64,000 nucleotides of DNA, taken from Dehalococcoidia bacterium (GTDB lineage: Bacteria; Chloroflexota; Dehalococcoidia; Lucifugimonadales; G963668185). The stretch spans positions 2,691,092-2,755,091 of the forward strand of contig OZ220745.1 of assembly GCA_965116985.1 (NCBI GenBank), read 5' to 3'. The notes beneath the pieces are model-generated. The model was not told the DNA's origin, ran no database searches, and worked only from the letters and a program-made list of their open reading frames with translations. The stretch's first letter is position 1. The number at the start of each line of letters is the position of its first letter. Both the position numbers and the translations under genes were made by a program. Of the stretch, positions 9,465-57,956 are shown piece by piece.

Positions 9465-12086
9465 ATGTTCAAGAAGCTTGCAAACCTGCTCGGCAACTCC
9501 AATGAGCGTGCTGTCAAGCAAGTCCAGGGCAGGGTCGAGGCGATCAACGCCTTGGAGCCCAAGCTCGAGGCGCTTGCGGAAGACCAGCTTCAGGCGAGGA
9601 CGGACAGGTTCCGCGAAGATCTCGACCGGGGCGCTGACCTTGACGAGATACTTCCCGAAGCCTTCGCTACTGTACGAGAGGCCGCTAAGCGCGCATTGGG
9701 ACAGCGTCACTACGATGTCCAGCTGATTGGTGGCGCGGTCCTCCATGAAGGGAAGATCGCGGAGATGCGCACCGGTGAGGGGAAGACCCTCGTAGCAACG
9801 CTTCCTTCCTACCTGAACGCCCTGACCGGACAGGGCGTCCATGTCGTCACAGTCAATGACTACCTGGCGCGGCGGGATGCCCAGTGGATGGGCGACGTCT
9901 ATCACATGCTTGGACTGTCGATCGGCGTCCTGCAGAACCAGGACGCATATGTCTTCGACCCGGACCCTCCAAGTCCGAAGCCGGGAATGGAGAAGCTTCG
10001 TGCGGCGTCCCGCGAAGAGGCCTACAAGGCCGATATCACTTACGGGACGAACAATGAGTTCGGGTTCGACTACCTGCGGGACAACATGGTCGTGGACCTT
10101 CCGAGCAGGGTCCAGAGAGGCCGCGTCTACGCCATAGTTGACGAAGTGGACAACATCCTCATCGATGAGGCCCGGACGCCGCTGATCATAAGCGGGCAGG
10201 CGGAGACCCAGCCCCGTGAGTACCAGCGCTTCGCGAAGCTGGCCCTCCAGTTGCGGGACTCTGAGGACTACACCGTCGACGAGAAGCACAAAGCCGTGTC
10301 CCTGACCGTTGAGGGTATGGGCAAGCTGGAGCGGATTCTCGGCGTTTCGAATCTGTACGACCCTTCCAACTTCGAACTCGTTCACTTCGTGGAGAACGCA
10401 GTCAAGGCGCAGGCCATCTACAAGAGGGACCGCGACTACGTGGTAAGAGACGGTGAAGTGGTGCTCGTGGACGAATTCACCGGCCGGCTCATGCCCGGGC
10501 GGCGCGTCTCCGATGGAATGCACCAGGCGATTGAGGCAAAGGAAGGGACCCGGGTCCAGCGCGAAACGACTACCCACGCCACGATTACCCTCCAGAACTA
10601 CTTCCGGCTGTACGAGAAGCTTGCGGGGATGACCGGCACGGCAGTCACGGAGGCTGAGGAGTTCTTCAAGATCTACAAGCTGGAGGTCGTGGAGATACCC
10701 ACTCACCGGCCGATGGTCAGGGACGACTCCAACGACCTGATCTACCGCGACCAGAAGGCGAAGTACAAGGCAGTTGTCGAAGACATCAAGAGTCGGCATG
10801 AGCGCGGTCAGCCTGTCCTTGTCGGGACTACCGACATCTCGAAGTCTGAGGCGCTCAGCGGGCTTCTGAAGAGGCAGGGCATCCCCCACGAGGTGCTGAA
10901 TGCCAAGCAGCACGAGCGCGAGGCCAACATCGTCGCGCAGGCCGGCCGGCCGGGCGCGGTCACGGTCGCGACGAATATGGCGGGGCGCGGCACGGACATC
11001 ATTCTGGGCGGCAGCCAGGACGGACTCGATGAGAGCGCGTGGGCCAAAGAGCACCAGAAAGTGCTGGACGCCGGCGGACTGCACATAGTCGGAACTGAGC
11101 GGCACGAGGCCCGCCGCATCGACAATCAGCTCCGAGGCCGGTCGGGCAGGCAGGGCGACCCGGGAAGCTCTCGTTACTACGTTGCGTTGGACGACGATCT
11201 TATGAGGCGCTTCGGCGGCGAGCGCATCAGGTCGGTCATGGACTGGGCGGGACTGGAGGATGACGTTCCCATCGAAAACCGCGTCATCAGCAAGTCGCTC
11301 GAAAGCGCCCAGGTCAAGGTCGAGGCCCACCACTTCGATATGCGCAAGCACCTGGTGGACTACGACGACGTTGTCAACACTCACAGGGACGTCATCTACA
11401 GCGAGCGAGACAAGATTCTTGGCGGCTCGGACCTTGAGAGCAACGTCCGATCCATGGTCGAAAGCGAGATCCAGGGAGTCCTGGACGGCTACCTGAACGA
11501 CCGGACCCACGAGGACTGGGATGTGGACGGCTTGCTGGCGGAGCTCGAGGCGCTCTTGCCGCTGCCTCCCGATCTTTCCAACGCAGACGAGGTGTTCGAT
11601 CTGCGGTCTGACGACATCACGAACCGTGTGCACCAGTGGGCCGATGAGTCGTACACGCGGCTGGAGGGCGAGGTCGGCGCCGGGGTCATGAGGTCTATCG
11701 AGCGGCACCTTATGCTCAGGATCATCGACGCCCACTGGGTAACCCACCTGACCGCGATGGAGAACCTGCGCCAGGGCATCGGCCTTCACGCGTACGGTCA
11801 GCGAGACCCGCTCGTGATGTACAAGAGGGAGGCGCACGAGAAGTTCCAGGACCTCATGGCGCGAATCCAGCGGGATATCGCGCACGCCATCTTCCGCGTC
11901 ACGGTCGCCCCGGGCGGCCCGGGTCCGAACGGAGTGCAGCGCCTGGGCCCTGCTCCGGCCAGGCCTGCCGCAAGGCGCGCGGCAGTCCCGGTCGGCGGTC
12001 CCGCGGCGTCGCGCAAGGTTGGCCGCAACGCTCCGTGCCCCTGCGGAAGCGGCAAGAAGTACAAGCGCTGCCACGGCGGGAACTGA
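9465..12086 (+). CDS. secA: preprotein translocase ATPase SecA
   Basis: MFKKLANLLGNSNERAVK..., DEAD-like motor motifs (MRTGEGKTLVATLP, DEVDNILIDEARTPLIISG), C-terminal zinc finger CPCGSGKKYKRCHG. Confidence 0.97.
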   Translation: MFKKLANLLGNSNERAVKQVQGRVEAINALEPKLEALAEDQLQARTDRFREDLDRGADLDEILPEAFATVREAAKRALGQRHYDVQLIGGAVLHEGKIAEMRTGEGKTLVATLPSYLNALTGQGVHVVTVNDYLARRDAQWMGDVYHMLGLSIGVLQNQDAYVFDPDPPSPKPGMEKLRAASREEAYKADITYGTNNEFGFDYLRDNMVVDLPSRVQRGRVYAIVDEVDNILIDEARTPLIISGQAETQPREYQRFAKLALQLRDSEDYTVDEKHKAVSLTVEGMGKLERILGVSNLYDPSNFELVHFVENAVKAQAIYKRDRDYVVRDGEVVLVDEFTGRLMPGRRVSDGMHQAIEAKEGTRVQRETTTHATITLQNYFRLYEKLAGMTGTAVTEAEEFFKIYKLEVVEIPTHRPMVRDDSNDLIYRDQKAKYKAVVEDIKSRHERGQPVLVGTTDISKSEALSGLLKRQGIPHEVLNAKQHEREANIVAQAGRPGAVTVATNMAGRGTDIILGGSQDGLDESAWAKEHQKVLDAGGLHIVGTERHEARRIDNQLRGRSGRQGDPGSSRYYVALDDDLMRRFGGERIRSVMDWAGLEDDVPIENRVISKSLESAQVKVEAHHFDMRKHLVDYDDVVNTHRDVIYSERDKILGGSDLESNVRSMVESEIQGVLDGYLNDRTHEDWDVDGLLAELEALLPLPPDLSNADEVFDLRSDDITNRVHQWADESYTRLEGEVGAGVMRSIERHLMLRIIDAHWVTHLTAMENLRQGIGLHAYGQRDPLVMYKREAHEKFQDLMARIQRDIAHAIFRVTVAPGGPGPNGVQRLGPAPARPAARRAAVPVGGPAASRKVGRNAPCPCGSGKKYKRCHGGN

Positions 12087-13854: not shown

Positions 13855-14548
13855 GACCGTTGCTGGTCCCTGTTCCTCCAGCGCCGAGGCCATCTCTCAG
13901 CTTCGTGCAGACGTGCGGGACGGCGTCCACTGGGCTGAGGCGGTCTTTCGGGCGATGGGGCAGTGGGCCAACGCGGAGGAAGAGGCAAATGGCCGGCATT
14001 TCAGGTACGTCATTGGAGGCGAGGCGTTCGACAGGACGCTCCTGGCCGAAAGGCTGCTCCAGGAGGTTGCAGGGGAGGTCCCTGAGGGCGAGATCGAGAA
14101 CTTCACAGTCCGGGGGGACCTGCCTGAAGGAATCGATGAGGACCGGATCCAGAGCTTGCTCGGCGTGGAGAAGTATCGGGGATACCTGAACTTCCACTAT
14201 GGCGTGACCGTGGAGGAGACGCTGCAGCTGGCGGTGGAGCAGGAGGTCATCAAGCGGTACGCGAGCAACGGCATCCGACGCATTGAAGACCCTGCCGAAG
14301 AGGCGTTCGCCAGAATCTACGGCGCCGGCCAGGCGGAACTGGCCGTGAGGTTCAGGCAAGAGGACGCAGGGGAGGGCGGCACGGCTGCGACACTCGACGA
14401 AGTGCCCATGACGATGTCGGAGTGCAAGGAGTTCACCTACTGGCTGTTCAAGCTCAGGCTCAGGCGATCTGACAAGCCAAAGATAGCCAGCGACACGAAA
14501 AAGGGCCTCGACCAGCTTCAGAGGATGCGCAAGGCAAGCCGCGCCTGA
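13847..14548 (+). CDS. hypothetical protein, translationally coupled to polX
   Basis: ATG 13847 overlaps the polX stop (ATGCGTGA). Codon usage looks coding. No family recognised. Confidence 0.6.
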   Translation: MRETVAGPCSSSAEAISQLRADVRDGVHWAEAVFRAMGQWANAEEEANGRHFRYVIGGEAFDRTLLAERLLQEVAGEVPEGEIENFTVRGDLPEGIDEDRIQSLLGVEKYRGYLNFHYGVTVEETLQLAVEQEVIKRYASNGIRRIEDPAEEAFARIYGAGQAELAVRFRQEDAGEGGTAATLDEVPMTMSECKEFTYWLFKLRLRRSDKPKIASDTKKGLDQLQRMRKASRA

Positions 14549-14565
14549 CCCCGTCCTGAGCCCGT

Positions 14566-15030
14566 CGAAGTGGCCCTACGCAAGCCAGCCCTCGCCCCAA
14601 GTCCGCCAAAGCGTAGCCCCCAACCCATTCGCCCTGACCCCGTCGAAGGGCCTTGCCCCGAACACCACCCGCCCCCCAAGTCCGCCAAAGCATAGCCCCC
14701 AATCCGTTCGCCCTGAGCCTGTCGAAGGGCCTTCCGCAAGCCAACTCTCGGCCCAAGTCCGCCAAAGAGCAGCCCCCAACCCATTCGCCCTGAGCCCGTC
14801 GAAGGGGCCTTCCACAAGCCAGCACTCGCCCCAAGTCCGCCAAAGTACCCTTACCCAATCCGTTCGCCCTGAGCCTGTCGAAGGGCCTTACGCAAGCCAC
14901 CTCTCGCCCCTAATCCGCCAAAGCGTAGCCCCCAATCCGTTCACCCTGAGCCTGTCGAAGGGCCTTACGCCGAGCAGCGTCCGCTAGAAGTCCGCCATCC
15001 CTCAGGCGTAGGGGCCGTTCGCGAACGACC
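14566..15030. repeat. tandem array of six composite A+D units, 76-79 bp period
   Basis: GTCGAAG landmark at 14566, 14642, 14721, 14798, 14877 and 14954 (spacings 76, 79, 77, 79, 77). The whole unit is repeated with point variation. There are no unique spacers. Confidence 0.85.
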
Positions 15031-15390
15031 CTCCCAGCAGTACCAACCCACGCCACAACCCCGTCATCCCGGCATTCACACGGCAGCGTGAACCCGGGGC
15101 CAGCCGGGATCCAGAGGGGCGGGGGCATTTCGCCTATCGAACCACTCGCCTCGATCACAGGAATCCGCACGGAACTGTCATTCTGAACGAAGCGAAGCGG
15201 AGTGAAGAATCTAAAGCCGTTGCCCGCAAAACAAGGTTGTTCCCAGACACCAACCCACACACCACAACCCCGCCATCCCCGCACTCCCGCGCCAGCGTGA
15301 ACCCGAGGGCCAGCCGGAATCCAGAGGGGCGGGGCACCCCACGCCCGCCAACACCCTCCGGCGATAGACCCTGCCACAAACCAGCACTCG

Positions 15391-15832
15391 CCCCAAGTCC
15401 GCCAAAGTGCCCTTACCCAATTCGTTCGCCCTGAGCCCGTCGAAGGGCCTTCCGGCGAGCAGCGTCCGCCAGAAGTCCGCCCGCCACCAACCCCCGCCCT
15501 CCAAAGACCACGCGTAGGGGCCGTTCGCGAACGGCCCGCCCAACCACGCGCCACACCGAAGCGTCGACAGGAACCCGTTCGCCCCAAGTCCGCCAAAGTG
15601 CCCTTACCCAACCCGTTCGCCCTGAGCCTGTCGAAGGGTCTTCCGGCGAGCAGCGTCCGCCAGAAGTCCGCCCGCCACCAACCCCCGCCCTCCAAAGACC
15701 ACGCGTAGGGGCCGTTCGCGAACGGCCCGCCCAACCACGCGCCACACCGAAGCATCGACAGGAACCCGTTCGCCCCGTTCGCCAAAGTGCCCTTACCCAA
15801 CCCGTTCGCCCTGAGCCTGTCGAAGGGCCTTA
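15391..15832. repeat. 191-bp higher-order tandem duplication (2 full units plus a partial third)
   Basis: CCCCAAGTCC landmark at 15391 and 15582, with CCCC at 15773. The palindrome module recurs at 15514 and 15705 (191 bp apart). Confidence 0.85.
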
Positions 15833-16053
15833 CGCAAGCCACCTCCCGCCCAAAGTCCGCCCCAGCCCCCACAACAGCCGCGCACGGCCCGTTCGCAAAC
15901 GGCCCACCCACCAACCCCCGCCACACCACAATCCCGCCATCCCCGCACTCCCGCGACAGCGTGAACCCGGGGGTAGCTGGAATCCAGCGGGGCGGGGCAC
16001 CCCACGCCCATCTACACCTGAGCCCTTCCCTCCAAATCCCACCAACCGCCCTC

Positions 16054-16090: not shown

Positions 16091-17074
16091 ATGTATAGCG
16101 AAACGCAGTCCATATCACCAATACAGAGCATCGTCCGAGAAGAGACAAAGGACGGCAGACTCATCGTGCGATTCCTCGTCGCCGCAATGCAGGACGAGAT
16201 TCGCGACGCCAAGCCTCATCACAGGCTCGACGCCGCACGCCAGCTGATCAAGCTCGGCTTCGACGAAGCGAAGGAGTTCGCCAGCATACCCGCGACATCA
16301 CTAAAGCGTGCAGGGCAGCCGAAGCCCGAGGCCGACACCATCGACACCTCCAACCTCAACCCAGACCTAGCGCTCTTCATACGCGCCGAGACCGACGGAG
16401 GCCGCCGGGCCGTACGCTTCCTCGTCGACGTCATGCTCGGATTCATGCCCGGGTTCGGACCGCACCATCGCATAGACGCAGCCAAGGAGCTGCTCCGCCG
16501 CGGCTTCGACGAAGCCCCCGACGACCTACCACTCTTTCCCCAGCCTGCCCTGATCTCGTCGAAGGAGTCTGTCCTGAGCCCGTCGAACGAGCCTGTCCTG
16601 AGCCTGTCGAAGGAACCTGTCGGACCGCAACAGGCGTCCTCTGACGACTCCCTCGCCGAAGCCGACATCCTCCTCGACTACGAACCCCCGTACGTCAACA
16701 CATACGGCCACAGCCGAGACGACGGTCTGAACACCCGAGCAGTCTTCAAAGCGTCGGACGCCCTGATGGACGCCGTCGGCAGGCTCCCGCCGCCCGAGAA
16801 ACCCGGAGCATTCAACCCCGACGAGACGAGCAGCATCATCGTGCACAACGGAACGGAGCACTACTTCAAGGAACACGCGCGCACAGCGGTAGAACTGTCC
16901 ATCGCCGCGGGCGAAGTCATGGACGCGATCAGGCGCATCCGTGATTCATGCCGGACACCCTCCGCCTTCCTCGCCCAAAATACCAAGAAGGACTCCGACC
17001 CCGGGGAAGAACCTGCCGATGACGACGAGAGCCTGTCCCGCCCCCCTCGAGGGAACGCCGACGCTCCCCCCTGA
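16091..17074 (+). CDS. hypothetical protein, paralog 1. Two tandem ~43-aa helical repeats, an internal module-derived 8-aa repeat and an unassigned C-terminal domain
   Basis: 327-aa ORF. Internal repeats DGRLIVRFLVAAM..KPHHRLDAARQLIKLGFDEA and GGRRAVRFLVDVM..GPHHRIDAAKELLRRGFDEA. About 92% nt identity to 55010-56041 over the first 120 nt (9 mismatches counted). Confidence 0.7.
   Translation: MYSETQSISPIQSIVREETKDGRLIVRFLVAAMQDEIRDAKPHHRLDAARQLIKLGFDEAKEFASIPATSLKRAGQPKPEADTIDTSNLNPDLALFIRAETDGGRRAVRFLVDVMLGFMPGFGPHHRIDAAKELLRRGFDEAPDDLPLFPQPALISSKESVLSPSNEPVLSLSKEPVGPQQASSDDSLAEADILLDYEPPYVNTYGHSRDDGLNTRAVFKASDALMDAVGRLPPPEKPGAFNPDETSSIIVHNGTEHYFKEHARTAVELSIAAGEVMDAIRRIRDSCRTPSAFLAQNTKKDSDPGEEPADDDESLSRPPRGNADAPP
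16554..16625 (+). repeat. in-frame 24-nt tandem repeat (3 units) derived from repeat module A, inside the CDS
   Basis: Units at 16554-16577, 16578-16601 and 16602-16625 encode SKESVLSP/SNEPVLSL/SKEPVGP. The paralog has 4 units. Confidence 0.85.
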
Positions 17075-17775
17075 TCCCCACGTCCCTGCCGCAGCGTGAC
17101 CTTCGAACACACGCCGCACATCGGCAAGAAAGCCAGCCCACCCCGCAAACCCGTCATTCCGGTATTCACGCGAAAGCGTGAACCAGGGGCAGCCGGAATC
17201 CAGCGGGGCGGGGCACGTCACGCCCGCCAACACCCTCCGGCAACAGAACCCCGCCGCCCTCCCTCAGGCGTAGGGGCCGTTCGCGAACGGCCCGTCCCAC
17301 CACGCGCCACACCAAAGCGTCGACAGGAACCTGTTCGCCCCCAAATCCGCCAGAGCGTAGCCCCCAATCCGTTCGCCCTGAGCCTGTCGAAGGGCCTGCC
17401 GCAAGCCAGCTCCCGCCCCAAGTCCGCCATCCCTCGGGCGTAGGGGCCGTTCGCGAACGGCCCGCCCAACCACGCGCCACACCAAAGCGTCGACAGGAAC
17501 CCATTCGCCCCCCAAATCCGCCAGAGCGTAGCCTCCAGTCCGTTCGCCCTGAGCCTGTCGAAGGGCCTTACGCAAGCCACCTCTCGCCCCAAGTCCGCCC
17601 CAGCGCCCACATCAGGCCGCGCGCATGGGCCTTTCGCGAACGACTCTCCCTCACCAACGCCCGCCCACCCCGCAACCCGTCAATCCCGTCATTCACGCGA
17701 AAGCGTGAACCGGGGGTTAGCCGGAATCCAGTGGGGCGGGGTCGTCCGCTACTCCCCCTGAGCCCGTCGAAGAAA
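17075..17775. repeat. 0.7-kb mosaic repeat array downstream of paralog 1, abutting the copA 3' end
   Basis: Module C at 17150-17213 and 17685-17741, containing the perfect hairpin TTCACGC-GAAA-GCGTGAA (17165-17182 and 17692-17709). Module B starts at 17270 and 17440. Module A at 17369-17396. Confidence 0.9.
17261..17600. repeat. 170-bp higher-order tandem duplication (2 units)
   Basis: CCCTCrGGCGTAGGGGCCGTTCGCGAACGGCCC landmark at 17261 and 17431. Confidence 0.8.
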
Positions 17776-31125: not shown

Positions 31126-31185
31126 GCGGCGGACAGAGGGGAGGCGACATGCGCAAGGCCCATTGGCAGCCGCGAAGGGTAGCCT

Positions 31186-31250
31186 GCGTAAGGCCCATTG
31201 ACGGGCCAAGGGCGAACGGACTTGGGGCGCGTGATTTGGCGGACTTGTGG
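31186..31250. repeat. degenerate solo A+D repeat unit (reverse orientation) between convergent genes
   Basis: GCGTAAGGCCCaTtGACgGGCcaAGGGCGAACGGACTTGGGGCGcgtgATTTGGCGGACTTGTGG aligns to the reverse complement of the 77-79-bp unit. Confidence 0.7.
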
Positions 31251-35372: not shown

Positions 35373-35470
35373 GATAGAGGCGCGCAGGGCCTACGTCAAC
35401 GAATCTCGCCCTCAGATAGAGGCGCGCAGGGCCTACGTCAACGAATCTCGCCCTCAGATAGGGGCGAGAT
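35373..35470. repeat. perfect 42-bp tandem direct repeat (2 units plus a partial third)
   Basis: GATAGAGGCGCGCAGGGCCTACGTCAACGAATCTCGCCCTCA at 35373-35414 and 35415-35456. A third unit starts at 35457 and diverges. Confidence 0.9.
35446..35469 (-). terminator. candidate terminator hairpin after the M20 peptidase gene
   Basis: TCTCGCCC / GGGCGAGA 8-bp stem with an 8-nt loop. On the minus strand it is followed by TTCGTT, a weak U-tract. Confidence 0.35.
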
Positions 35471-43759: not shown

Positions 43760-44194
43760 TCAATCGAGTGTCCAGGGATTGAGGACGTCTATTCCACAAT
43801 CGTGAAAGCCGCCTTCGTCCCTGGTGGCGACCGCGGCTCCTTCGGACCGCGCTATGGCGGCGATCTGACAGTCCGCGTAGCTGATTGGATTGCCGGCGGA
43901 GCGCCGGGCTGCGGCTATCGTTGCGTAGGCTGAGGCAGCCCGCCTGTCGAACGGCAGAATGCGCCCGGCGAAGTCTACGTTGAGCATCTCCTCAATCTCC
44001 GCTGTGAGCCTGTCGCGTCGACGACCCGCAGGCAGCAGTTCGGCGCCATATCGCAGCTCGGCCTCGCTGATCGTCGTCAAGTAAAGGGACGTGGCTGTCT
44101 GATTCATCACCCAATTGATGACGCTTGCGGCAGGTGAGGGCGCAATCAACTCCGAGACGACGTTTGTGTCCAAGACAATCATGATTGGCATCAT
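43760..44194 (-). CDS. vapC: type II toxin, PIN-domain ribonuclease VapC
   Basis: IVLDTNVVSEL...TISEAELRYG. ATGA overlap with the upstream antitoxin gene. Confidence 0.85.
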   Translation of the reverse strand: MMPIMIVLDTNVVSELIAPSPAASVINWVMNQTATSLYLTTISEAELRYGAELLPAGRRRDRLTAEIEEMLNVDFAGRILPFDRRAASAYATIAAARRSAGNPISYADCQIAAIARSEGAAVATRDEGGFHDCGIDVLNPWTLD

Positions 44195-44436
44195 TCAAAG
44201 CGGGGTGGTTCAGGTATAGGCTCTCGCGGCGGTAACTCAAGCTCCACGCCGCCATAGGGCTCGAATCTGTCACGAATCGCCCGGACGAGGTCTGCTCCCG
44301 TGGGAACCTCCTGTTCGAGTGCGGCCCTCAGTATGTCCCTGACTTCCTGCTCCATGGACTTCCCGTTCTCGGCGGCCCGTACGCGCAGGCGGCGCTTCAG
44401 GTTCTCGTCTATGTTGCGGACCGTGATGCTCGCCAT
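44191..44436 (-). CDS. vapB: type II antitoxin, ribbon-helix-helix (FitA/VapB-like)
   Basis: MASITVRNIDENLKRRLRVRAAENGKSMEQEVRDIL. Confidence 0.8.
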   Translation of the reverse strand: MASITVRNIDENLKRRLRVRAAENGKSMEQEVRDILRAALEQEVPTGADLVRAIRDRFEPYGGVELELPPREPIPEPPRFE

Positions 44437-44597
44437 GTCTGCTCCCTGCTTGTCTTTCTTGCGCGCGCATGCATTGATGGCAGTGCAATCATAGCAGATT
44501 GAGTCCAAATGAGGGAATTGCGGGCGTCCAATGTATCAGCAGGGCCTTTGCGAGATACTCTGATGGATTAGGAGGCTTGTGGACTGTGCAAGCCGAT

Positions 44598-45590: not shown

Positions 45591-45678
45591 GGGGTGGCAA
45601 GCGAGAGGCCTCTGTCTGCGTGACGCCATCGGACAGGTAGGGCTGAACGGCACTTGGGGCGAATGGCGGTCTGAGAGA

Positions 45679-45698
45679 GGCCCTTCGACAGGCTCAGG
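45679..45698. repeat. solo module A core (reverse orientation)
   Basis: GGCCCTTCGACAGGCTCAGG. Confidence 0.75.
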
Positions 45699-45771
45699 TG
45701 GAGTGGACTGCTGGCGAGGCCCCTAAGCTTGCGGAGGACCCTTCGGCGGGCTTATGGACAGCTGTCGGGAT

Positions 45772-45808
45772 GGTGGCAAGGGCAGGTCTCAAACCTGCCC
45801 TTGCCACC
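45772..45808. terminator. perfect 16-bp-stem hairpin between convergent genes, a candidate bidirectional terminator or repeat element
   Basis: GGTGGCAAGGGCAGGT-ctcaa-ACCTGCCCTTGCCACC. There are no flanking U/A tracts. Confidence 0.5.
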
Positions 45809-45831
45809 TGTTGTCTCGATGCTGGCTTGGC

Positions 45832-46938
45832 TTAGCTACGGCGGCGGCGAATTCTAAGGCGTTCGCCTTTGGGGTCGTAGCGGCGAGAGGCGGTTATGGC
45901 GGCCTCGCGCTCGCTGCCCTCGGTGGTAACGCTGGCCATTGTGCCCTCTTCGGCGAACTCGGCCTTGACCATGCCGAGCGCGATGTTGCCTCCAAGGAAA
46001 TAGCCCTGCGTGGCGACGGTCACGTTGCCGACCTCAACGCCGTCCACGAGTATCGGATCGCCGGGCTTGGCGACGTCATCGCCGTCGATGTCGAGGCCAA
46101 CAACGAGGCGCTCGGCGCCCTCCGCCTTGATGCGGGCTGCGGCATCCCTGCCGATGAAGTTGCGGTTCTGGAGTTTGACGAAGATGTCCAGCCGGCACTC
46201 GTACGGGTTGGAGCCCTTGTACTCGGAGCCTCCGATGAGGCCCTTCTCGACGCGCAGGCTGTTCATGGCCATGAGGCCCATGGGAATCACACCGTGGTCT
46301 TTGCCCGCCTCGAGAATCGCGTTCCAGACCTCGACGCCGTCTTCGGCGAGCGGGAACAGTTCGAATCCGTCCTCGCCGGTATAGCCGGCGCGGTCCACGT
46401 AGCAGGGGAAGCCGGCGACCGTGCACTGGGCGCCCCAGAAGAAGTACATCGTGGAGAGGTCTTCGTCCGTGATCGATTGCAGGACCTCTTCGGACTTCGG
46501 GCCCTGGAGCGCGATTGGGCCGGCATAGCCGGAGGATACGTCCGTGACCACGGCGTCCGCGATGGGCTCGAGCATCTTGAATCGGCCTACGATGTCAGGC
46601 CTGCTGGTGGGAAACGACTGGAAGTGTTCATCGTTGAGCTTGAGCAGAGTTCCGTCGTCAATGATCTGACCGTTGTGGTCAAGGATCGAGGTGTACATCA
46701 TCTGGTCGTCCTGCAGGCGCTTCGGGTCGTTCGCGCAGACCAGGTCGACGAGGGCTTCGGCGCCGCGACCCTTGATGTCGATGATGGGCATTGTGGACAG
46801 GTCCTGGAGCGCGGCGCCCTCGCGGGCGGCCATGTGTTCCGCCTCCTGGCCGGTGGGGTAGCTGAGCGCCCAGTTGCCGGTGGGGAGCATGGTGGCTCCG
46901 TTCTCAACGTGCCAGTAGTAGTAGGGCATTCGCTTCAT
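45832..46938 (-). CDS. aminomethyltransferase (glycine-cleavage T / GcvT family) folate-dependent enzyme
   Basis: DLSTMPIIDIKGRGA..., RAGYTGEDGFELF, NSLRVEKGL. The exact substrate cannot be assigned. Confidence 0.85.
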   Translation of the reverse strand: MKRMPYYYWHVENGATMLPTGNWALSYPTGQEAEHMAAREGAALQDLSTMPIIDIKGRGAEALVDLVCANDPKRLQDDQMMYTSILDHNGQIIDDGTLLKLNDEHFQSFPTSRPDIVGRFKMLEPIADAVVTDVSSGYAGPIALQGPKSEEVLQSITDEDLSTMYFFWGAQCTVAGFPCYVDRAGYTGEDGFELFPLAEDGVEVWNAILEAGKDHGVIPMGLMAMNSLRVEKGLIGGSEYKGSNPYECRLDIFVKLQNRNFIGRDAAARIKAEGAERLVVGLDIDGDDVAKPGDPILVDGVEVGNVTVATQGYFLGGNIALGMVKAEFAEEGTMASVTTEGSEREAAITASRRYDPKGERLRIRRRRS

Positions 46939-47161
46939 CGTTCGTTTCTCCTTCTGTGGCTTGGCAGTCTCTTGGTTGAATTGCGGCTACGGTCGACTTG
47001 GCGCTTTGCGCCGGATCCCCTCATTCCTTCGACAAGCTCAGGACAGGCTCTAACCTTATCCCACAAGGGTGGAAGGAACCGGAATTGCTCCTTTGACTAA
47101 CCTCATTGCAGTCAAGTTCAAAGTGACGTAGGGCACACGCTGTTGCTTTCGGATTGACTTG

Positions 47162-53498: not shown

Positions 53499-54459
53499 GA
53501 TGCTTCATCGAGATGTTGCCGCCGCTGAGGACGATGGCGACCTTGAGACCTTCAAGCTCGTCCTTGCGCTTCAGCGCCCCTGCCAGCGCGGACGCGCCGG
53601 CGTGCTCGGCGAGATCGCGAGTCAGCTCCAGGTGAAGGAGCACCGCCTCGTCAAGCTCGGCCTCTGAAACCAGGACGAAGTCGTCAAGCATGTCGCGCAT
53701 GATGCCCACCGTGAACTCGAATCCGAGGGAGGTTGCCAGTCCCTCCGCGCGGGTGTTCATCGGGTAGCTCTCCATGAAGCCGGACTTCCAGGACAGGTAC
53801 GCGGCCTGCGCAGCCTCCGCCTGGACGCCGACGACGCGCACGCCGGGGTTTACGCCCTTGGCGGCGACGCAGGTGCCGCAGGCCCCGCTGCCGCCTCCGA
53901 TGCCGACGAAGATCACGTCCACGTCCGGCACGTCTTCCATGATCTCAAGACCGTAAGTGCCGACGCCTTCGATGAGCGCGGGCTCGTTGGCCGAGTGGAT
54001 GTACCGCATCCCCTCCTCACGGGAAAGCTGCTCGACGTGCTCCCTGGCGTCGTCGAAGCTGTCGCCGTGAAAGATCACGTTGGCCCCCAGGTCCTGCATG
54101 GACTGGACCTTGCCGGGATTGGCGTCTTCCGGCACGACGATCGTGGCGGCGGCGCCGAACTGCCGGGCCGCGAAGGCGATCGACTGTCCGTGGTTGCCGG
54201 TGGACGCGGAGATGACGCCCATGGCGCGCTCCTCCGGCGTCATCTGCGAGACCAGGTTCAGGCCGCCCCTCACCTTGAAGGCGCCCAGGATCTGGTAGTT
54301 CTCATGCTTGACGTAGACCTCGGCTGCGCCGAGGAGCCGTTCGAGAGAGTGGTACCGATGCAGCGGAGTCCTAATAATGTAAGGAGAAATCCGTTTTCTG
54401 GCGTTAAGAACGTCTTGCAATACTGGCCTTTTCAGGTGCAACTGAACTTCTCCTTTCAA
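53473..54459 (-). CDS. PLP-dependent threonine/serine dehydratase
   Basis: ENYQILGAFKVRGG (PLP Lys), SASTGNHGQ, GIGGGSG. TTG 54441 (8 nt after GGAG) is a likelier start than TTG 54459. The 3' end overlaps the pyrD 3' end by 26 nt. Confidence 0.85.
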   Translation of the reverse strand: MKGEVQLHLKRPVLQDVLNARKRISPYIIRTPLHRYHSLERLLGAAEVYVKHENYQILGAFKVRGGLNLVSQMTPEERAMGVISASTGNHGQSIAFAARQFGAAATIVVPEDANPGKVQSMQDLGANVIFHGDSFDDAREHVEQLSREEGMRYIHSANEPALIEGVGTYGLEIMEDVPDVDVIFVGIGGGSGACGTCVAAKGVNPGVRVVGVQAEAAQAAYLSWKSGFMESYPMNTRAEGLATSLGFEFTVGIMRDMLDDFVLVSEAELDEAVLLHLELTRDLAEHAGASALAGALKRKDELEGLKVAIVLSGGNISMKHLRGALAAQ

Positions 54460-54535
54460 GGATTTGGGAGCTCAAGCGAGGTCCCTCAAGTAAGTTGCGG
54501 ACGCCAATCGCGCCCGCACGAAATCCAGCATAACA

Positions 54536-54551
54536 TGTGATATGAATCACA
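54536..54551. promoter_or_regulatory. perfect CRP/FNR-family consensus half-sites
   Basis: TGTGA-tatgaa-TCACA in an AT-rich patch, about 80-95 nt upstream of the dehydratase start. Confidence 0.4.
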
Positions 54552-54698
54552 AACATCGTTTAGGTCGAACGGAACATCAATGCCCCGAGACTCCTAACGG
54601 CGGCAGCCGTTCAAATATTGGGCGGATGGATTCAAGCTGTTGAGCGCGGCTGCTTACCCCTGTAAGCATCGAGGCAGGGGATTGAGAGCCTGCCCTGA

Positions 54699-54909
54699 TC
54701 CCGTCCTGAGCCTGACGAAGGGGCCCGTGCCCCAACCCGTTCGCCCTGAGCCCGTCGAAGGGCCTTCCGCCGAGCAGCGTCCGCTAGAAGTCCGCCCGCC
54801 ACCAATCCCCGCCCTCCAATGACCACGCGTAGGGGCCGTTCGCGAACGGCCCGCCCCGGGACGCCACGCCGGCGAAGTAGAAGCGACCCACACCGCAACC
54901 CCGTCAACG
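54699..54909. repeat. mosaic repeat array (modules A and B) on the 3' side of paralog 2
   Basis: Module A at 54737-54764, module B at 54829-54852. Collinear with the A-linker-B composite seen at 15420-15540. Confidence 0.85.
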
Positions 54910-54928
54910 AATTAGATGACACTTACAA
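54905..54928. repeat. left arm of the inverted repeat bracketing the paralog-2 block
   Basis: CAACGAATTAGATGACACTTACAA. Positions 54910-54928 are the perfect reverse complement of 56628-56646, and the match is 23/24 when extended. It sits in the loop of the hairpin AACCCCGTCA...TGACGGGGTT. Confidence 0.85.
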
Positions 54929-55009
54929 ATGACGGGGTTGTGTTGTGGGCGGGCTCTCTTGCCGGTGCGGCGTGTGTTCGAATGTCACGCTGCGGCAGGG
55001 ACGTGGGGA

Positions 55010-56041
55010 TCAAGGGGGAGCGTCGGCGTTCCCTGGAGGAACTCCTTCGACAAGCCCAGGACGGGGTTGGGACGGGCTCCCGTCGTCATCGGCAGGTTCT
55101 TCCCCGGGGTCCGAGTCCTTTTTGGTATTTTGGGCGAGGAAGGCGGAGGGTGTCCGGCATGAGTCACGGATGCGCCTGATCGCGTCCATGACTTCGCCTG
55201 CTGCGATGGACAGTTCTACCGCTGTGCGGGCGTGTTCCTTGAAGTAGTGCTCCGTTCCGTTGTGCACGATGATGCTGCTCGTCTCGTCGGGGTTGAATGC
55301 TCCGGGCTTCTCGGGCGGCGGTAGCCTGCCTACGGCGTCCATCAGGGCGTCCGACGCCTTGAAGACTGCCCGGGTGTTCAGACCGTCGTCCCGGCTGTGG
55401 CCGTATGTGTTGACGTACGGGGGCTCGTAGTCGAGGAGCACGTCGGCTTCGGTGGGGGAGTCGTCGGAGGACGTCTGTTGCGGTCCGACAGGTTCCTTCG
55501 ACAGGCTCAGGACAGGCTCGTTCGACGGGCTCAGGACAGGCTCGTTCGACGGGCTCAGGACAGGCTCGTTCGACGGGATCTGAGAAGGCTGGGGAAAGAG
55601 TGGCAGGTCGGCGGGGGCTTCATCGAAGCCGCGGCGGAGCAGTTCCTTGGCGGCGTCTATGCGATGGTGCGGCCCGAACCCGGGCATGAATCCGAGCATG
55701 ACGTCGACGAGGAAGCGTACGGCCCGTCGGCCTCCGTCGGTCTCGGCGCGTATGAAGAGCGCGAGGTCGGGGTTGAGGTTGGCGGTGTCGATGGTGTCGG
55801 CCTCGGGCTTCGGGTGCTCTGCGCGCTTTAGTGATGTCGCGGGTATGCTGGCGAACTCTTTCGCTTCGTCGAAGCCGAGCTTGATTAGCTGGCGTGCGGC
55901 GTCGAGCCTGTGATGAGGCTTGGCATCGCGTATCTCGTCCTGCATTGCGGCGACGAGGAATCGCACGATGAGTCTGCCGTCCCTGGTCTCTTCGCGGACG
56001 ATGCTCTGTATTGGTGATAAGGCCTGCGTTTCGCTGGACAT
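55010..56041 (-). CDS. hypothetical protein, paralog 2 of 16091-17074
   Basis: 343 aa with the same domain order. It differs by one extra 24-nt unit in the internal repeat and by a 24-nt module-like net insertion near the C-terminus (55043-66). Confidence 0.7.
   Translation of the reverse strand: MSSETQALSPIQSIVREETRDGRLIVRFLVAAMQDEIRDAKPHHRLDAARQLIKLGFDEAKEFASIPATSLKRAEHPKPEADTIDTANLNPDLALFIRAETDGGRRAVRFLVDVMLGFMPGFGPHHRIDAAKELLRRGFDEAPADLPLFPQPSQIPSNEPVLSPSNEPVLSPSNEPVLSLSKEPVGPQQTSSDDSPTEADVLLDYEPPYVNTYGHSRDDGLNTRAVFKASDALMDAVGRLPPPEKPGAFNPDETSSIIVHNGTEHYFKEHARTAVELSIAAGEVMDAIRRIRDSCRTPSAFLAQNTKKDSDPGEEPADDDGSPSQPRPGLVEGVPPGNADAPP
55483..55578 (-). repeat. in-frame 24-nt tandem repeat (4 units) inside paralog 2
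   Basis: Units at 55483-55506, 55507-55530, 55531-55554 and 55555-55578. Encodes SNEPVLSP x3 plus SNEPVLSLSKEPV. Confidence 0.85.
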
Positions 56042-56048
56042 GGGTTCT

Positions 56049-56078
56049 AGCTTAAGGCATTGAGAACTAGTGTGTCAA
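56049..56078 (-). promoter_or_regulatory. candidate leaderless-mRNA promoter of paralog 2
   Basis: Minus strand: TTGACA (56078-56073), 18-nt spacer, TAAGCT (56054-56049), then 7 nt to ATG 56041. Confidence 0.45.
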
Positions 56079-56627
56079 GACGGTGTTTGGACGGACTTGT
56101 GGAGGGAAGGGTCCACGTCTTGATGGGCGTGGGGATCCCCGGCCCGCTGGATTCCGGCTAGCCCCTGGTTCACGCTGGCGCGGGAGTGCGGGGATGGCGG
56201 GGTTGTGGTGTGTGGGCTGGTACTGCTGGGAGGGTCGTTCGCGAATTGGTCATGTGCGCGGCTGTTGTGGCTGCGGGGGCGGACTTGGGGCGGGAGCTGG
56301 CTTGCGTAAGGCCCTTCGACAGGCTCAGGGCGAACGGGTTCCTGTCGACGTTTTGGTGCGGCGCGTGGTTGGGCGGGCCGTTCGCGAACGGCCCCTACGC
56401 CTGAGGGATGGCGGCGGGGTTCTGTCGCCGGAAGGTGTTGGCGGGCGTGGGGTGCCCCGCCCCTCTGGATTCCGGCTGGCGCCGGGTTCACGCTGACGCG
56501 GTTTTGGTGTATGGGTTGGTTCAACTTCGCCGGCGTGGCGCGTGGTTGGGCGGGCCGTTCGCGAACGGCCCCTACTCCTGAGGGATGGCGAACGGGTCAT
56601 GCGCGGCAGGGGTGGCGATCGGCGGAA
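56079..56627. repeat. mosaic repeat array on the 5' side of paralog 2 (modules C, B, D and A in reverse orientation)
   Basis: Module A (reverse complement) at 56310-56337. Module B (reverse complement) at 56375-56398 and 56552-56575, 177 bp apart. Module C (reverse complement) at about 56130-56190 and 56445-56500. The order is collinear with 15790-16053. Confidence 0.9.
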
Positions 56628-56651
56628 TTGTAAGTGTCATCTAATTTGTTG
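56628..56651. repeat. right arm of the inverted repeat bracketing the paralog-2 block
   Basis: TTGTAAGTGTCATCTAATTTGTTG. Confidence 0.85.
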
Positions 56652-56858
56652 GCAGAATATTCAGAGTTTCCAATGGGGTCGCGGGGAGGCCCGTTGTGTG
56701 CTTGGTGAAATCCGCTGGTTTGTCTAGTCGAGCAGACCCTTCATTCGCGTTGGTTAGGAGAAGTCGCGTCAAACAGTACTGGTGATAAGATGACCTCGCT
56801 GGCACATCCTGTTAGAATCCTGGCTGAATACGGAAAACAAGCGAGAAGTTGAGGGCGA

Positions 56859-57956
56859 TTGCTTCAACGCCTCATAAAACAGGACTCCCCCTCCAAGTCT
56901 AGCGACAGGTCCGCACTCTATGTCGATGTGGATAACCTGCGCGACGGTGCCCAGACCGTTATTGAAGACCTGATCAGGAACTGGCCGTCGTCTATTCCGA
57001 CAGCCGGCAGGCTGTGCCTCTACGTCAGGGCCGAAAACCTCGACCTGTGGGAGATGTGGGCCAAAAGCCAGTTCCCCGAACTGGCCGTGGTGGTCAAGGG
57101 CGTCCAGCATTACAGTTTCCACCCGTCGAAGAACGCGGCGGACATGTCGATCGCGATGGACGCGCTCTCGGACATGATGCTGCGCCGCGCGAACTGGGTG
57201 GTGGTGTTCAGCGACGACAGCGACTTCATCGGCCTGTACGCGAAGGTCAAGGAGATCCACGAGGAGTCCGGCGGCGACGGCCGCAACGCCCCGTTCACGT
57301 GGGTGCTCACGGACCGCAGGGACACTCGGTCCGGAACGATCAGGGACTACTTCCCCAACGATCACGTCTACACGATCAAGTTCCCGACAGGCAGGAGGAT
57401 GTCGCCCGCGCCGGCTCCGACGGCCCGTTCTTCGCAGGGCACTGCCAGGACGCCGGCACGCACATCCCAGGCCGCGCCTAGGCCTTCGCGGGCCGCGCAG
57501 CCCGCTTCCAGGACTGCCCGCACTCCGCAGCCCGCTTCCAGGACCGCCCGCACCCCGCAGCCGGCGCCGAGACCTGCCCGCGCCGCGCAGCCTGCTTCCA
57601 GGCCTGCCCGAAGCGCAGAGGCTTCTCCGACGGAGTGTAAGCACCGCGGCAGGAGCAAGGCCGACGATGACAGGCGCAACGGGCGGATACTCAGCCAGAT
57701 GGCCGAGACCATTCTCAGAGAGGTGCCGGTGGGCTTCTTTGGGAGCGGAGACTGCCAGAAGATCGTGAAGAAGATCTGGCCGGACCACAGCCTGGCGAGG
57801 TCGAGCCCATCAGGATTCGGAACGAAGTTCGCGAACTCGATCCTGCCGATCCTGAAGGAGAAGGGTGTTACCGAGCCCAATCCCAATCGCAGGCCCAGGC
57901 GTTACGAGATGACCGAGGACGCCAAGGGCGCTGCCGCTCGCCAGGGCTCGTCTTGA
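56859..57956 (+). CDS. NYN (LabA/DUF88-like PIN-fold) nuclease domain, Pro/Ala/Arg-rich repeat linker, and an OST-HTH/LOTUS-like C-terminal domain
   Basis: ALYVDVDNL, SKNAADMSIAMDA, VVVFSDDSDFIGL (NYN acidic residues). The C-terminal ...FFGSGDCQKIVKKIWPDHSL...GFGTKFANSILPIL is LOTUS-like. TTG start. Confidence 0.7.
   Translation: MLQRLIKQDSPSKSSDRSALYVDVDNLRDGAQTVIEDLIRNWPSSIPTAGRLCLYVRAENLDLWEMWAKSQFPELAVVVKGVQHYSFHPSKNAADMSIAMDALSDMMLRRANWVVVFSDDSDFIGLYAKVKEIHEESGGDGRNAPFTWVLTDRRDTRSGTIRDYFPNDHVYTIKFPTGRRMSPAPAPTARSSQGTARTPARTSQAAPRPSRAAQPASRTARTPQPASRTARTPQPAPRPARAAQPASRPARSAEASPTECKHRGRSKADDDRRNGRILSQMAETILREVPVGFFGSGDCQKIVKKIWPDHSLARSSPSGFGTKFANSILPILKEKGVTEPNPNRRPRRYEMTEDAKGAAARQGSS
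57434..57614 (+). repeat. about six units of a 30-nt (10-aa) in-frame tandem repeat in the NYN protein linker
   Basis: GCAG landmark at 57497, 57527, 57557 and 57587 (exact 30-nt period), with two degenerate units upstream. Encodes QPASRTARTP-like decapeptides. Confidence 0.85.

What the first reader, a model, noticed from the sequence alone, without database searches (positions are those of the whole stretch)
54905..56651. Second copy of the gene-plus-array block is bracketed by a 19-bp perfect (23/24) inverted repeat
AATTAGATGACACTTACAA (54910-54928) and its exact reverse complement (56628-56646) flank a 1.7-kb segment. That segment carries paralog 2, its promoter and about 0.55 kb of upstream array. 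Homology to the copy-1 locus runs collinearly through the array, promoter, gene and about 60 nt of 3' flank. It ends at the left arm: copy 1 continues CCCGTCATTCCGG..., whereas copy 2 reads CCCGTCATTTGTAAGTG.... The arms are AT-rich in a GC-rich context, and I did not find this sequence elsewhere in the window. The left arm sits in the loop of a 10-bp (20 bp with 2 mismatches) hairpin. The layout fits three readings: termini of a non-autonomous mobile unit, an invertible segment, or two copies of a further repeat family. I saw no flanking direct target duplication.
Basis: seen in the sequence. Interest (0 to 1): 0.7.

Follow-up and report, generated by a model that had tools for sequence, protein, structure and literature searches.

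The report
Short inverted repeat marking a local inversion
A real 24-base inverted repeat brackets a 1.7-kb gene-plus-repeat block in an uncultured Chloroflexota-like bacterium; it most likely marks a one-off local inversion rather than a mobile element or a genetic switch, so it is of modest interest.

Summary
The repeat is real. AATTAGATGACACTTACAA (54910-54928) and its reverse complement (56628-56646) match perfectly, and 23/24 when extended. They are the longest inverted repeat in the window not made of array modules.

Four related genomes carry the same PALP|NYN-MutL neighbourhood. They lack the whole 2.2-kb stretch 54562-56758, including both arms. The arms lie 343 and 107 nt inside that stretch, so they are not its edges.

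Of six loci of this multi-copy gene family, only this one has such a repeat. It has no target-site duplication. The window holds no recombinase or transposase. Public collections give only chance hits to the 19-mer.

The right arm is continuous with an AT-rich spacer. The left arm is an isolated AT island, sitting where array polarity flips between two head-to-head repeat-unit starts. Flipping the block back rebuilds a co-oriented 870-nt array.

Best reading (about 0.45): a local inversion copied about 24 nt of adjacent spacer, inverted, to the other breakpoint. A reversible switch, transposon termini and a low-copy repeat family remain possible but unsupported. Interest is low to moderate.

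The parts
54905..54928 (+). Left arm, CAACGAATTAGATGACACTTACAA (perfect core 54910-54928). An isolated AT-rich island (GC 0.33) between GC-rich array pieces. Inferred to be the copy.
   Evidence: (I9)
56628..56651 (-). Right arm, the reverse complement of the left arm (perfect core 56628-56646). It is the first half of the AT-rich tract 56628-56676, which is continuous with unique spacer. Inferred to be the original.
54887..54906 (+). a1: the start of a 'D5' array unit (CCCACACCGCAACCCCGTCA), cut off at the 5' foot of the D5 hairpin. It is the last element of the outer, plus-oriented array.
   Evidence: D5; I12
54930..54949 (-). a2: the start of the D5 unit in the 3' flank of paralog 2, cut off at the same GTCA position. 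With a1 it forms the 20-bp stem that holds the left arm in its loop.
   Evidence: (I12)
55010..56041 (-). Paralog 2: an intact 343-aa ORF of a multi-copy family with no Pfam, PHROG or NCBIfam match.
56073..56078 (-). TTGACA box of the promoter-like sequence conserved upstream of copy 1, copy 2 and the L006 copy.
   Evidence: sequence comparison
56100..56627 (-). Inner upstream array of repeat modules, co-oriented with the gene. Only 56100-56340 is collinear with copy 1.
54690..54906 (+). Outer-left array, in the opposite orientation to the inner array. Positions 54731-54856 are 95% identical to copy-1 units.
   Evidence: D4; I1-I4
54824..54906 (+). Rare module variant (contains CGCCACGCCGGCGAAGTAGAA). 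Its only relative in the window is the inverted copy at 56499-56580.
   Evidence: (I3, I4)
56499..56580 (-). Inverted partner of the rare module. It would be a tandem neighbour, at a 130-nt offset, if the block were flipped back.
54562..56758 (.). Lineage-specific stretch, absent from the syntenic PALP|NYN spacer of four relatives. It contains both arms.

Best explanation
The repeat is a rearrangement scar, not a working site.

**Proposed ancestral layout.** The spacer between the divergent PALP and NYN promoters held, in this order: unique DNA, a co-oriented repeat array, the promoter, the paralog on the plus strand, its 3' flank ending in a truncated D5 unit (...CCCGTCAT), and then an AT-rich spacer starting TTGTAAGTGTCATCTAATTTGTTG.

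**Proposed event.** One event inverted the 1.7-kb piece. It ran from inside the array (left break after ...CCCGTCA of another D5 unit) to the edge of the AT-rich spacer. The right break was staggered by about 24 nt, or the repair polymerase switched template. As a result, those 24 nt were kept in place and also carried, inverted, to the left junction. This gives the layout A-s'-C'...B'-s-D that is seen.

**Shown:**
- the repeat itself
- its uniqueness
- its absence from relatives and from other family loci
- the polarity flip at the left arm
- the AT-rich continuity at the right arm

**Inferred:** the ancestral order and the break and repair mechanism.

Today the 24-bp arms could at most support rare homologous flipping.
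For: 1. The layout matches the staggered-break inversion model. In that model, unique sequence next to one breakpoint is found inverted at both ends of the inverted segment, sometimes for one breakpoint only (PMC1885836).
2. The right arm is the start of a 50-nt AT-rich tract continuous with unique spacer. The left arm is a 22-24-nt AT island between GC-rich array pieces.
3. The inner edge of each arm coincides with a homology break. Copy 1 and L006 homology stop at 54928, and the array stops at 56627.
4. Array polarity flips at the left arm.
5. A module variant found only twice in 64 kb lies inverted on the two sides of the left arm, and the two copies are reciprocal best matches.
6. Flipping the block back in silico gives an 870-nt array made only of direct repeats. 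The junction module finds its best match 130 nt downstream. The junction reads CCCGTCA|TTCCG, as in intact D5 units (GTCATTCCGG).
7. Two-nt overlaps (CA and AA) at both edges of the left arm fit microhomology joining.
8. Only this one of six family loci has such a repeat.
9. There is no recombinase or transposase in 64 kb.
Against: - No outgroup carries the block, so the ancestral orientation is inferred from internal evidence only.
- Array polarity also flips downstream of the L006 paralog without any such arm, so the flip alone does not prove an inversion.
- The rare-module pair is only 77% identical, whereas true tandem neighbours are 92-94%.
- The TTCCG match at the rebuilt junction is only 5 nt. 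It could also be read as the common module start AAGTCCGCC.
- The model does not explain why both D5 units are cut at the same GTCA position.
- Staggered-break inversions are documented in flies, not in bacteria, and it is unknown whether this organism has end joining.
- Only 64 kb of the 3.2-Mb source genome was visible.
Confidence: 0.45

Rival explanations
1. Templated patch without inversion. The convergent arrays (two D5 starts head to head) are ancestral, as in L006. The D5 hairpin between them was lost at a break. The gap was filled with a 22-24-nt copy, inverted, of sequence 1.7 kb away, through a template switch across the replication fork.
For: - L006 shows the same gene / D5 / reversed-D5 / reversed-array layout.
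- L006 also has a clean 24-nt insertion whose nearest relative is an inverted copy 1.4 kb away, across the gene, with no rearrangement of the flanks.
- There are 2-nt microhomologies at the arm edges.
- D5 units show other deletions ending at GTCA.
Against: - It does not explain why the template starts exactly at the boundary between array and spacer (56627/56628).
- It does not explain the inverted rare-module pair.
- The L006 patch is a unit of a high-copy module, so its true donor may lie elsewhere in that genome.
Confidence: 0.15
2. Programmed invertible segment (inverton). The arms are recombination sites for a recombinase encoded elsewhere. Flipping redirects the paralog's transcription towards PALP or towards NYN-MutL.
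For: - Short inverted repeats flanking a segment are the defining anatomy of invertons (PMC11602134 and PMC11892184 abstracts).
- Internal evidence suggests the block has flipped at least once.
- A related contig carries an IS110/Piv-type DEDD recombinase next to a paralog.
- The right arm carries weak promoter-like hexamers that point inward.
Against: - No recombinase in 64 kb.
- The arm has no internal dyad symmetry: 3 of 12 positions, read from the sequence.
- The segment is a self-contained gene with its own promoter, and nothing crosses a boundary.
- None of five other family loci has such arms.
- The model does not explain how an inverted copy of spacer sequence came to lie inside an array.
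Confidence: 0.12
3. Two copies of a low-copy dispersed element, for example solo ends of a decayed IS or MITE, or the spacer of a REPIN-like doublet. Under this reading they flank the block by accident or through targeting of the D5 hairpin foot.
For: - Both arms abut array modules.
- The left arm lies in the loop of two inverted repeat-unit starts, which resembles a REPIN doublet (PMC3337134 abstract).
- An IS110-family element in L006 sits inside an array module core, so elements that target these repeats exist in this group.
Against: - Only two copies in the window at up to 3 mismatches.
- None in about 93 kb of related loci at up to 6 mismatches of 24.
- Public scans give only chance-level single hits in low-GC coding contexts.
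- The sharp 24-nt boundaries and the AT-rich continuity at the right arm fit a local copy better.
Confidence: 0.13
4. Terminal inverted repeats of a non-autonomous mobile unit (arm - block - arm) that inserted between the outer array and the spacer.
For: - The repeat is 23/24 and sharply bounded, and the arm edges coincide with the edges of the block.
- The gene family is multi-copy with near-identical paralogs in the source genome.
Against: - No target-site duplication.
- No such termini at five other family loci.
- The block's protein has no transposase or nuclease signature or fold.
- The arms are not at the edges of the lineage-specific DNA.
- The right arm blends into the flanking AT-rich tract.
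- The inner module's closest relative lies just outside the left arm.
Confidence: 0.1
5. Assembly artefact in a long-read metagenome-assembled genome.
For: - The closest contigs have hifiasm or Flye-style names.
- Repeat arrays are hard to assemble.
Against: - A 24-bp repeat with unique flanks is far shorter than a read.
- Fold-back artefacts give long palindromes, not this layout.
- The ORF is intact.
Confidence: 0.03

Closest known systems
Inversions with inverted duplications at the breakpoints (staggered-break model; Ranz et al. 2007, PMC1885836)
   Same: Non-repetitive sequence next to one breakpoint is present, inverted, at both ends of the inverted segment. Only one breakpoint's sequence may be duplicated. 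There is no transposon and no target duplication.
   Different: The model was described for megabase inversions in Drosophila, with duplications of 46 bp to 1.9 kb. Here the inversion is 1.7 kb, the duplication is 24 bp and the host is a bacterium. The ancestral state is not observed, and the repair pathway is unknown.
Invertons / site-specific invertible segments (Hin, Gin, Fim, Piv; PhaseFinder-type invertons)
   Same: A short inverted repeat brackets a DNA segment of about 1-2 kb that lies between divergent genes.
   Different: No recombinase is nearby. The sites are not dyad-symmetric. The segment carries a whole gene with its own promoter rather than a promoter or alternative gene ends. 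No population evidence for two orientations is available.
IS/MITE or composite transposon with terminal inverted repeats
   Same: A 24-bp near-perfect inverted repeat lies at the two ends of a discrete block.
   Different: There is no target-site duplication, no transposase and no other copies. The cargo is a paralog of a chromosomal family whose other loci lack these ends.
REP / BIME / REPIN arrays and template-switch remodelling of quasi-palindromes
   Same: The setting is a mosaic array of GC-rich hairpin modules. The left arm sits in the loop of two inverted module starts, like a REPIN doublet. The breakpoints lie at a hairpin foot.
   Different: The arm sequence is AT-rich, is not a module and is two-copy. 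No RAYT-type gene was seen in the window.

Membership tests
IS/MITE-type element with terminal inverted repeats | Inverted repeats at the two termini | tested here: met
   24 nt, 23/24
IS/MITE-type element with terminal inverted repeats | Direct target-site duplication immediately outside the termini | tested here: not met
   With the 24-nt arms the outer flanks read ...AACCCCGT| and |GCAGAATA. With the 19-nt arms they read ...GTCAACG| and |TGTTGGC. No shared 2-12-mer in either case.
IS/MITE-type element with terminal inverted repeats | Further copies with the same termini in the same or related genomes | tested here: inconclusive
   No further copy in the window, in six related loci or at five other family loci. 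Public scans give chance hits only. The rest of the source genome could not be read.
IS/MITE-type element with terminal inverted repeats | A transposase inside the unit or elsewhere | tested here: not met
   The inner ORF has no Pfam, PHROG or NCBIfam hit and no nuclease or transposase fold. There is no transposase domain in the window's large ORFs. The wider genome could not be tested.
Site-specific invertible segment (inverton) | Inverted repeats flanking the segment | tested here: met
Site-specific invertible segment (inverton) | Both orientations present in the population (reads) | not testable with these tools
   No read data. The source genome is not retrievable.
Site-specific invertible segment (inverton) | A serine or tyrosine (or DEDD) recombinase encoded nearby | tested here: not met
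   None among the large ORFs of the 64-kb window. A recombinase acting in trans from elsewhere cannot be excluded.
Site-specific invertible segment (inverton) | Hin/Gin-type site: each site is itself an imperfect palindrome around a 2-bp core | tested here: not met
   The half-sites CAACGAATTAGA and TTGTAAGTGTCA agree at 3 of 12 positions (read).
Site-specific invertible segment (inverton) | An orientation-dependent output: a promoter or a gene part that crosses the boundary | tested here: inconclusive
   The segment holds a complete gene with its own promoter. Only weak promoter-like hexamers lie at the right arm.
Inversion with breakpoint inverted duplication (staggered breaks) | The duplicated sequence is non-repetitive and lies inverted at both ends of the segment | tested here: met
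Inversion with breakpoint inverted duplication (staggered breaks) | One copy is continuous with its native flank and the other is an island at the far junction | tested here: met
   The AT-rich tract 56628-56676 contrasts with the isolated island at 54905-54928. This rests on base composition only.
Inversion with breakpoint inverted duplication (staggered breaks) | The segment is inverted relative to the ancestral order seen in an outgroup | tested here: inconclusive
   The outgroups lack the whole block. Internal evidence favours an inversion: the array polarity, the rare-module pair and the rebuilt co-oriented array.
REP/REPIN dispersed palindromic repeat | Many dispersed copies of the same short sequence | tested here: not met
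   There are two copies of the arm only. The surrounding array modules do meet this feature.

The most novel reading that the evidence does not exclude
Bacteria of this group have a recurrent process, tied to the repeat arrays and the multi-copy helical-protein gene family. It plants inverted copies of about 24 nt across a paralog gene. Candidates are the window arms, the 24-nt inverted patch in L006, and the 24-nt module period in the gene's linker. The inverted repeats this creates would make whole gene cassettes invertible, possibly as a population-level switch of read-through into neighbouring operons.
Probability: 0.08. Interest if true: 0.65.

Novelty: new member of a known kind. Interest (0 to 1): 0.3.

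Why it matters
If the scar reading is right, this is a clean bacterial example of an inversion that carries an inverted micro-duplication of breakpoint sequence. That signature is well documented in flies and rarely noted in prokaryotes. It would also show that the hairpin-rich arrays of these Chloroflexota-like genomes are breakage hot spots that reshuffle a highly expanded gene family of unknown function. It would not reveal a new mobile element or regulatory switch. The gene family and its arrays are more interesting than the repeat itself.

Tried and rejected
- **Chance:** rejected.
- **Dispersed repeat in public data:** the 19-mer gave 5 single hits in GTDB genome representatives, 10 in JGI metagenomes and 0 in IMG/VR. 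All hits are in low-GC unrelated contigs, several in a KLDDTYK coding context, so they are chance.
- **Retrieving the source genome:** exact-protein look-ups for window proteins and for P0001 and P0004 all failed. A whole-genome count of the 19-mer was therefore impossible.
- **Empty site:** four syntenic relatives were found, but they lack the whole 2.2 kb and any arm. They cannot show an empty site for the arm-bounded unit.
- **Structured RNA:** no Rfam hit in 54300-57000.
- **Terminator or promoter role of the arms:** only weak consensus matches.
- **Function of the paralog:**
  - No Pfam family reached its cut-off (one weak sub-threshold PT-repeat match), and PHROG and NCBIfam gave no hits.
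  - The PDB sequence search gave only weak matches (best E = 0.033) and Foldseek gave none with E <= 0.001.
  - There were no phage or IMG/VR relatives.
- **Replicative-transposition inversion (IS - t' ... IS' - t):** the predicted positions of the target copies do not fit, because both D5 starts flank the same arm.
- **IS200/IS605-like reading (TTAC inside the arm; D5 hairpins in direct orientation on both sides of the gene):** considered, but there is no HUH motif or fold, so it was dropped.
- **TRF on the rebuilt array:** found nothing because the units are too diverged. BLAST self-comparison was used instead.
Full report
**1. The observation**

The 19-mer AATTAGATGACACTTACAA occurs at 54910-54928 (+) and 56628-56646 (-). 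It occurs nowhere else in the window, even with 3 mismatches allowed, and shuffles expect none. The repeat extends outward to 24 nt at 23/24 (CAACGAATTAG... against CAACAAATTAG...), with 1699 nt between the arms. All longer perfect inverted repeats in the window come from the two gene copies or from array modules. With those set aside, this pair is the longest in 64 kb, and the next pair at 200-5000 nt spacing is 13 nt.

The arms bracket three things:
- an intact 343-aa ORF (55010-56041, minus strand)
- a TTGACA box shared with copy 1 and a third copy in L006
- about 530 nt of repeat array

The hairpin around the left arm is real: a 20-bp stem, dG -20.6 kcal/mol, z = -5.1. No direct target duplication flanks the arms.

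- Collinearity with copy 1 covers only 56340 to 54928 (1415 nt, 89%). The distal array matches modules at other positions.
- The 3' flank up to the arm is 81 nt.
- Array modules also lie outside the left arm, in the opposite orientation.

**2. Context**

The window is ordinary chromosome, with SecA, UvrD/PcrA, FTHFS, DHODH, a PALP enzyme and MutL among its genes. No recombinase or transposase domain appears in any large ORF. Names on distant homologues of the NYN protein point to Chloroflexota (Dehalococcoidia / SAR202).

The paralog belongs to a large unannotated family. It has at least 14 clusters on the 3.2-Mb source contig, more than 20 on a 2.78-Mb relative, and 785 hits overall. AlphaFold gives two confident three-helix bundles, a disordered linker and a small C-terminal domain. 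PDB comparison by fold gave no significant match, and by sequence only weak ones. The protein has no relatives in the phage collection or IMG/VR. Nothing suggests it is a transposase.

**3. Relatives**

Four contigs carry the same order DHODH - PALP(-) | NYN(+) - 144 aa - MutL, with NYN 81-86% identical: L011, L008, L009 and L010. In them, the two conserved promoter blocks are separated by only about 25-270 nt of mutually unrelated sequence.

Window orthology stops at 54561 and resumes at 56759. The stretch 54562-56758 is therefore lineage-specific. It contains, in order:
- unique DNA
- a plus-oriented array
- the left arm
- the block
- the right arm
- 107 nt of unique DNA

No relative has the arm, even at up to 6 mismatches of 24. 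The arms are thus inside the lineage-specific DNA, not at its edges. No empty site for an arm-bounded unit can be shown.

**4. Is it a repeat family or a family-wide terminus?**

Scans of genome representatives, JGI metagenomes and IMG/VR gave 5, 10 and 0 hits. Every hit is single and lies in a low-GC unrelated contig, several in the same coding context, so this is the chance level. Among six loci of the gene family (copy 1, copy 2, L006, L007, L022, L023), only copy 2 has a unique flanking inverted repeat. The others have only array-module matches. The source genome outside the window could not be retrieved.

**5. Anatomy of the junctions**

- Homology of the block to copy 1 and to L006 ends at 54928, inside a 'D5' array unit. 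It ends at the 5' foot of that unit's hairpin (...CCCGTCAT|), where intact units continue TCCGGTATTCACGCG....
- Immediately left of the arm, the outer array ends in another D5 start cut at the same GTCA. The left arm therefore lies between two head-to-head D5 starts (I12).
- The inner array ends at 56627 in the middle of a module.
- The right arm is the first half of a 50-nt AT-rich tract (GC 0.29-0.45) that runs on into the unique spacer. The left arm is an isolated AT island between stretches of 65-68% GC. I infer that the right arm is the original and the left arm is the copy.
- Two-nt overlaps (CA with the outer D5 start, AA with the inner one) lie at the edges of the left arm.

**6. Evidence for an inversion**

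In copy 1, all modules on both sides of the gene share its orientation. At copy 2, the inner array is co-oriented with the gene, but the outer-left array is opposite.

A module variant containing CGCCACGCCGGCGAAGTWGAA occurs only twice in the window. One copy lies just outside the left arm (+) and the other inside, near the right arm (-). The two are reciprocal best matches at 77%. Elsewhere in these arrays, best matches are tandem neighbours at 92-94%.

I rebuilt the un-inverted state: 54562-54906, then the reverse complement of 54929-56627, then 56628 onward. This gives an 870-nt array made only of direct repeats. The junction module finds its best match 130 nt downstream, and the next offset is 177 nt. 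The rebuilt junction reads CCCGTCA|TTCCG, like intact D5 units.

The present layout is then A-s'-C'...B'-s-D. This is exactly what the staggered-break model predicts when one break is staggered (PMC1885836).

**7. Caveats**

- L006 shows convergent arrays downstream of its paralog without any such arm.
- L006 also has a clean 24-nt insertion whose nearest relative is an inverted copy across the gene, and a 19-nt perfect inverted repeat between module variants. Inverted copying of short pieces may therefore occur without segment inversion.
- The rare-module pair is fairly diverged, and the 5-nt junction match is weak.
- No outgroup fixes the ancestral orientation.
- No model explains why both D5 units are cut at GTCA. 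That hairpin foot is a recurrent endpoint, also seen in the D5 variants near 56505 and 17676-17691.

**8. Verdict**

- Best reading (0.45): a one-off local inversion that duplicated about 24 nt of breakpoint spacer in inverted orientation.
- Rivals:
  - templated inverted patch without inversion (0.15)
  - low-copy element remnants (0.13)
  - programmed inverton (0.12)
  - termini of a mobile unit (0.10)
  - assembly artefact (0.03)

The repeat is real but probably a passive scar, so interest is low to moderate. The expanded gene family and its hairpin arrays, whose modules are even translated inside the gene's linker, are the more remarkable feature of this region.

Noticed in passing
window 16091-17074 and 55010-56041; proteins P0001-P0039: The paralog belongs to a highly expanded, unannotated family. 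It has at least 14 clusters on the 3.2-Mb source contig, more than 20 on a 2.78-Mb relative, and 785 homologues overall. The conserved part is two N-terminal three-helix bundles. No Pfam, PHROG or NCBIfam family and no PDB match was found.
   Followed up: partly
window 55487-55582; alignment A1 columns about 350-500: The disordered linker and tails of these proteins are built from translated array modules. Examples are the 24-nt period PSNEPVLS units here, and PLPQSAGEGRDG, VIPAKAGIH and LSPSKGPVEAP in relatives. The same DNA repeats therefore colonise both the intergenic arrays and the coding sequence.
   Followed up: partly
window 14540-16030, 17130-17770, 54690-54906, 56100-56627; also 31165-31230 and 45652-47065: These are mosaic arrays of GC-rich hairpin modules (CCCTGAGCCTGTCGAAGGG, GTAGGGGCCGTTCGCGAACGGCCC, and D5 with TTCACGCGAAAGCGTGAA). 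Local tandem units have periods of 78, 171-177 and 191 nt. A D5 unit lies in direct orientation on each side of the gene in copy 1 and L006.
   Followed up: partly
L006 6983-7006 and 8407-8430; also 8147-8165 and 8431-8449: L006 has a clean 24-nt insertion relative to window copy 1, with identical flanks. Its nearest relative (22/24) is an inverted copy 1.4 kb away, on the other side of the paralog gene. A perfect 19-nt inverted repeat also links the gene's 3' coding end to the downstream reversed array.
   Followed up: partly
L006 5596-6543 (flanks about 5590 and about 6700): An IS110-family (DEDD) transposase lies next to a paralog. The array-module halves on its two sides (GCCCTTCGACAGGCTCAG near 5580 and GGGCGAACGG near 6705) suggest it is inserted within the module core.
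   Followed up: partly
window 54536-54551: A perfect CRP/FNR-type palindrome, TGTGA-TATGAA-TCACA, lies upstream of the PALP gene. It is kept intact (TGTGATATGAATCACA) in L010 and L011 and with one substitution in L008 and L009.
   Followed up: no
window 54562-56758 against L008 about 9031-9250, L009 about 2464-2732, L010 about 9906-9929 and L011 1233-1312: The spacer between the divergent PALP and NYN promoters is hypervariable. Every genome examined has unrelated sequence there, ranging from about 25 nt to 2.2 kb.
   Followed up: yes
window 35373-35456: A perfect tandem duplication of a 42-nt unit (GATAGAGGCGCGCAGGGCCTACGTCAACGAATCTCGCCCTCA) lies between an MFS transporter gene and an M20 peptidase gene.
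   Followed up: no
window 56627-56655 (minus strand): Promoter-like hexamers CTGCCA-17 nt-TACAAT span the right arm and point into the block. The second hexamer is completed by the first base inside the block.
   Followed up: no
window 43760-44508: A PIN-domain toxin and a FitA-like ribbon-helix-helix antitoxin form a gene pair.
   Followed up: no
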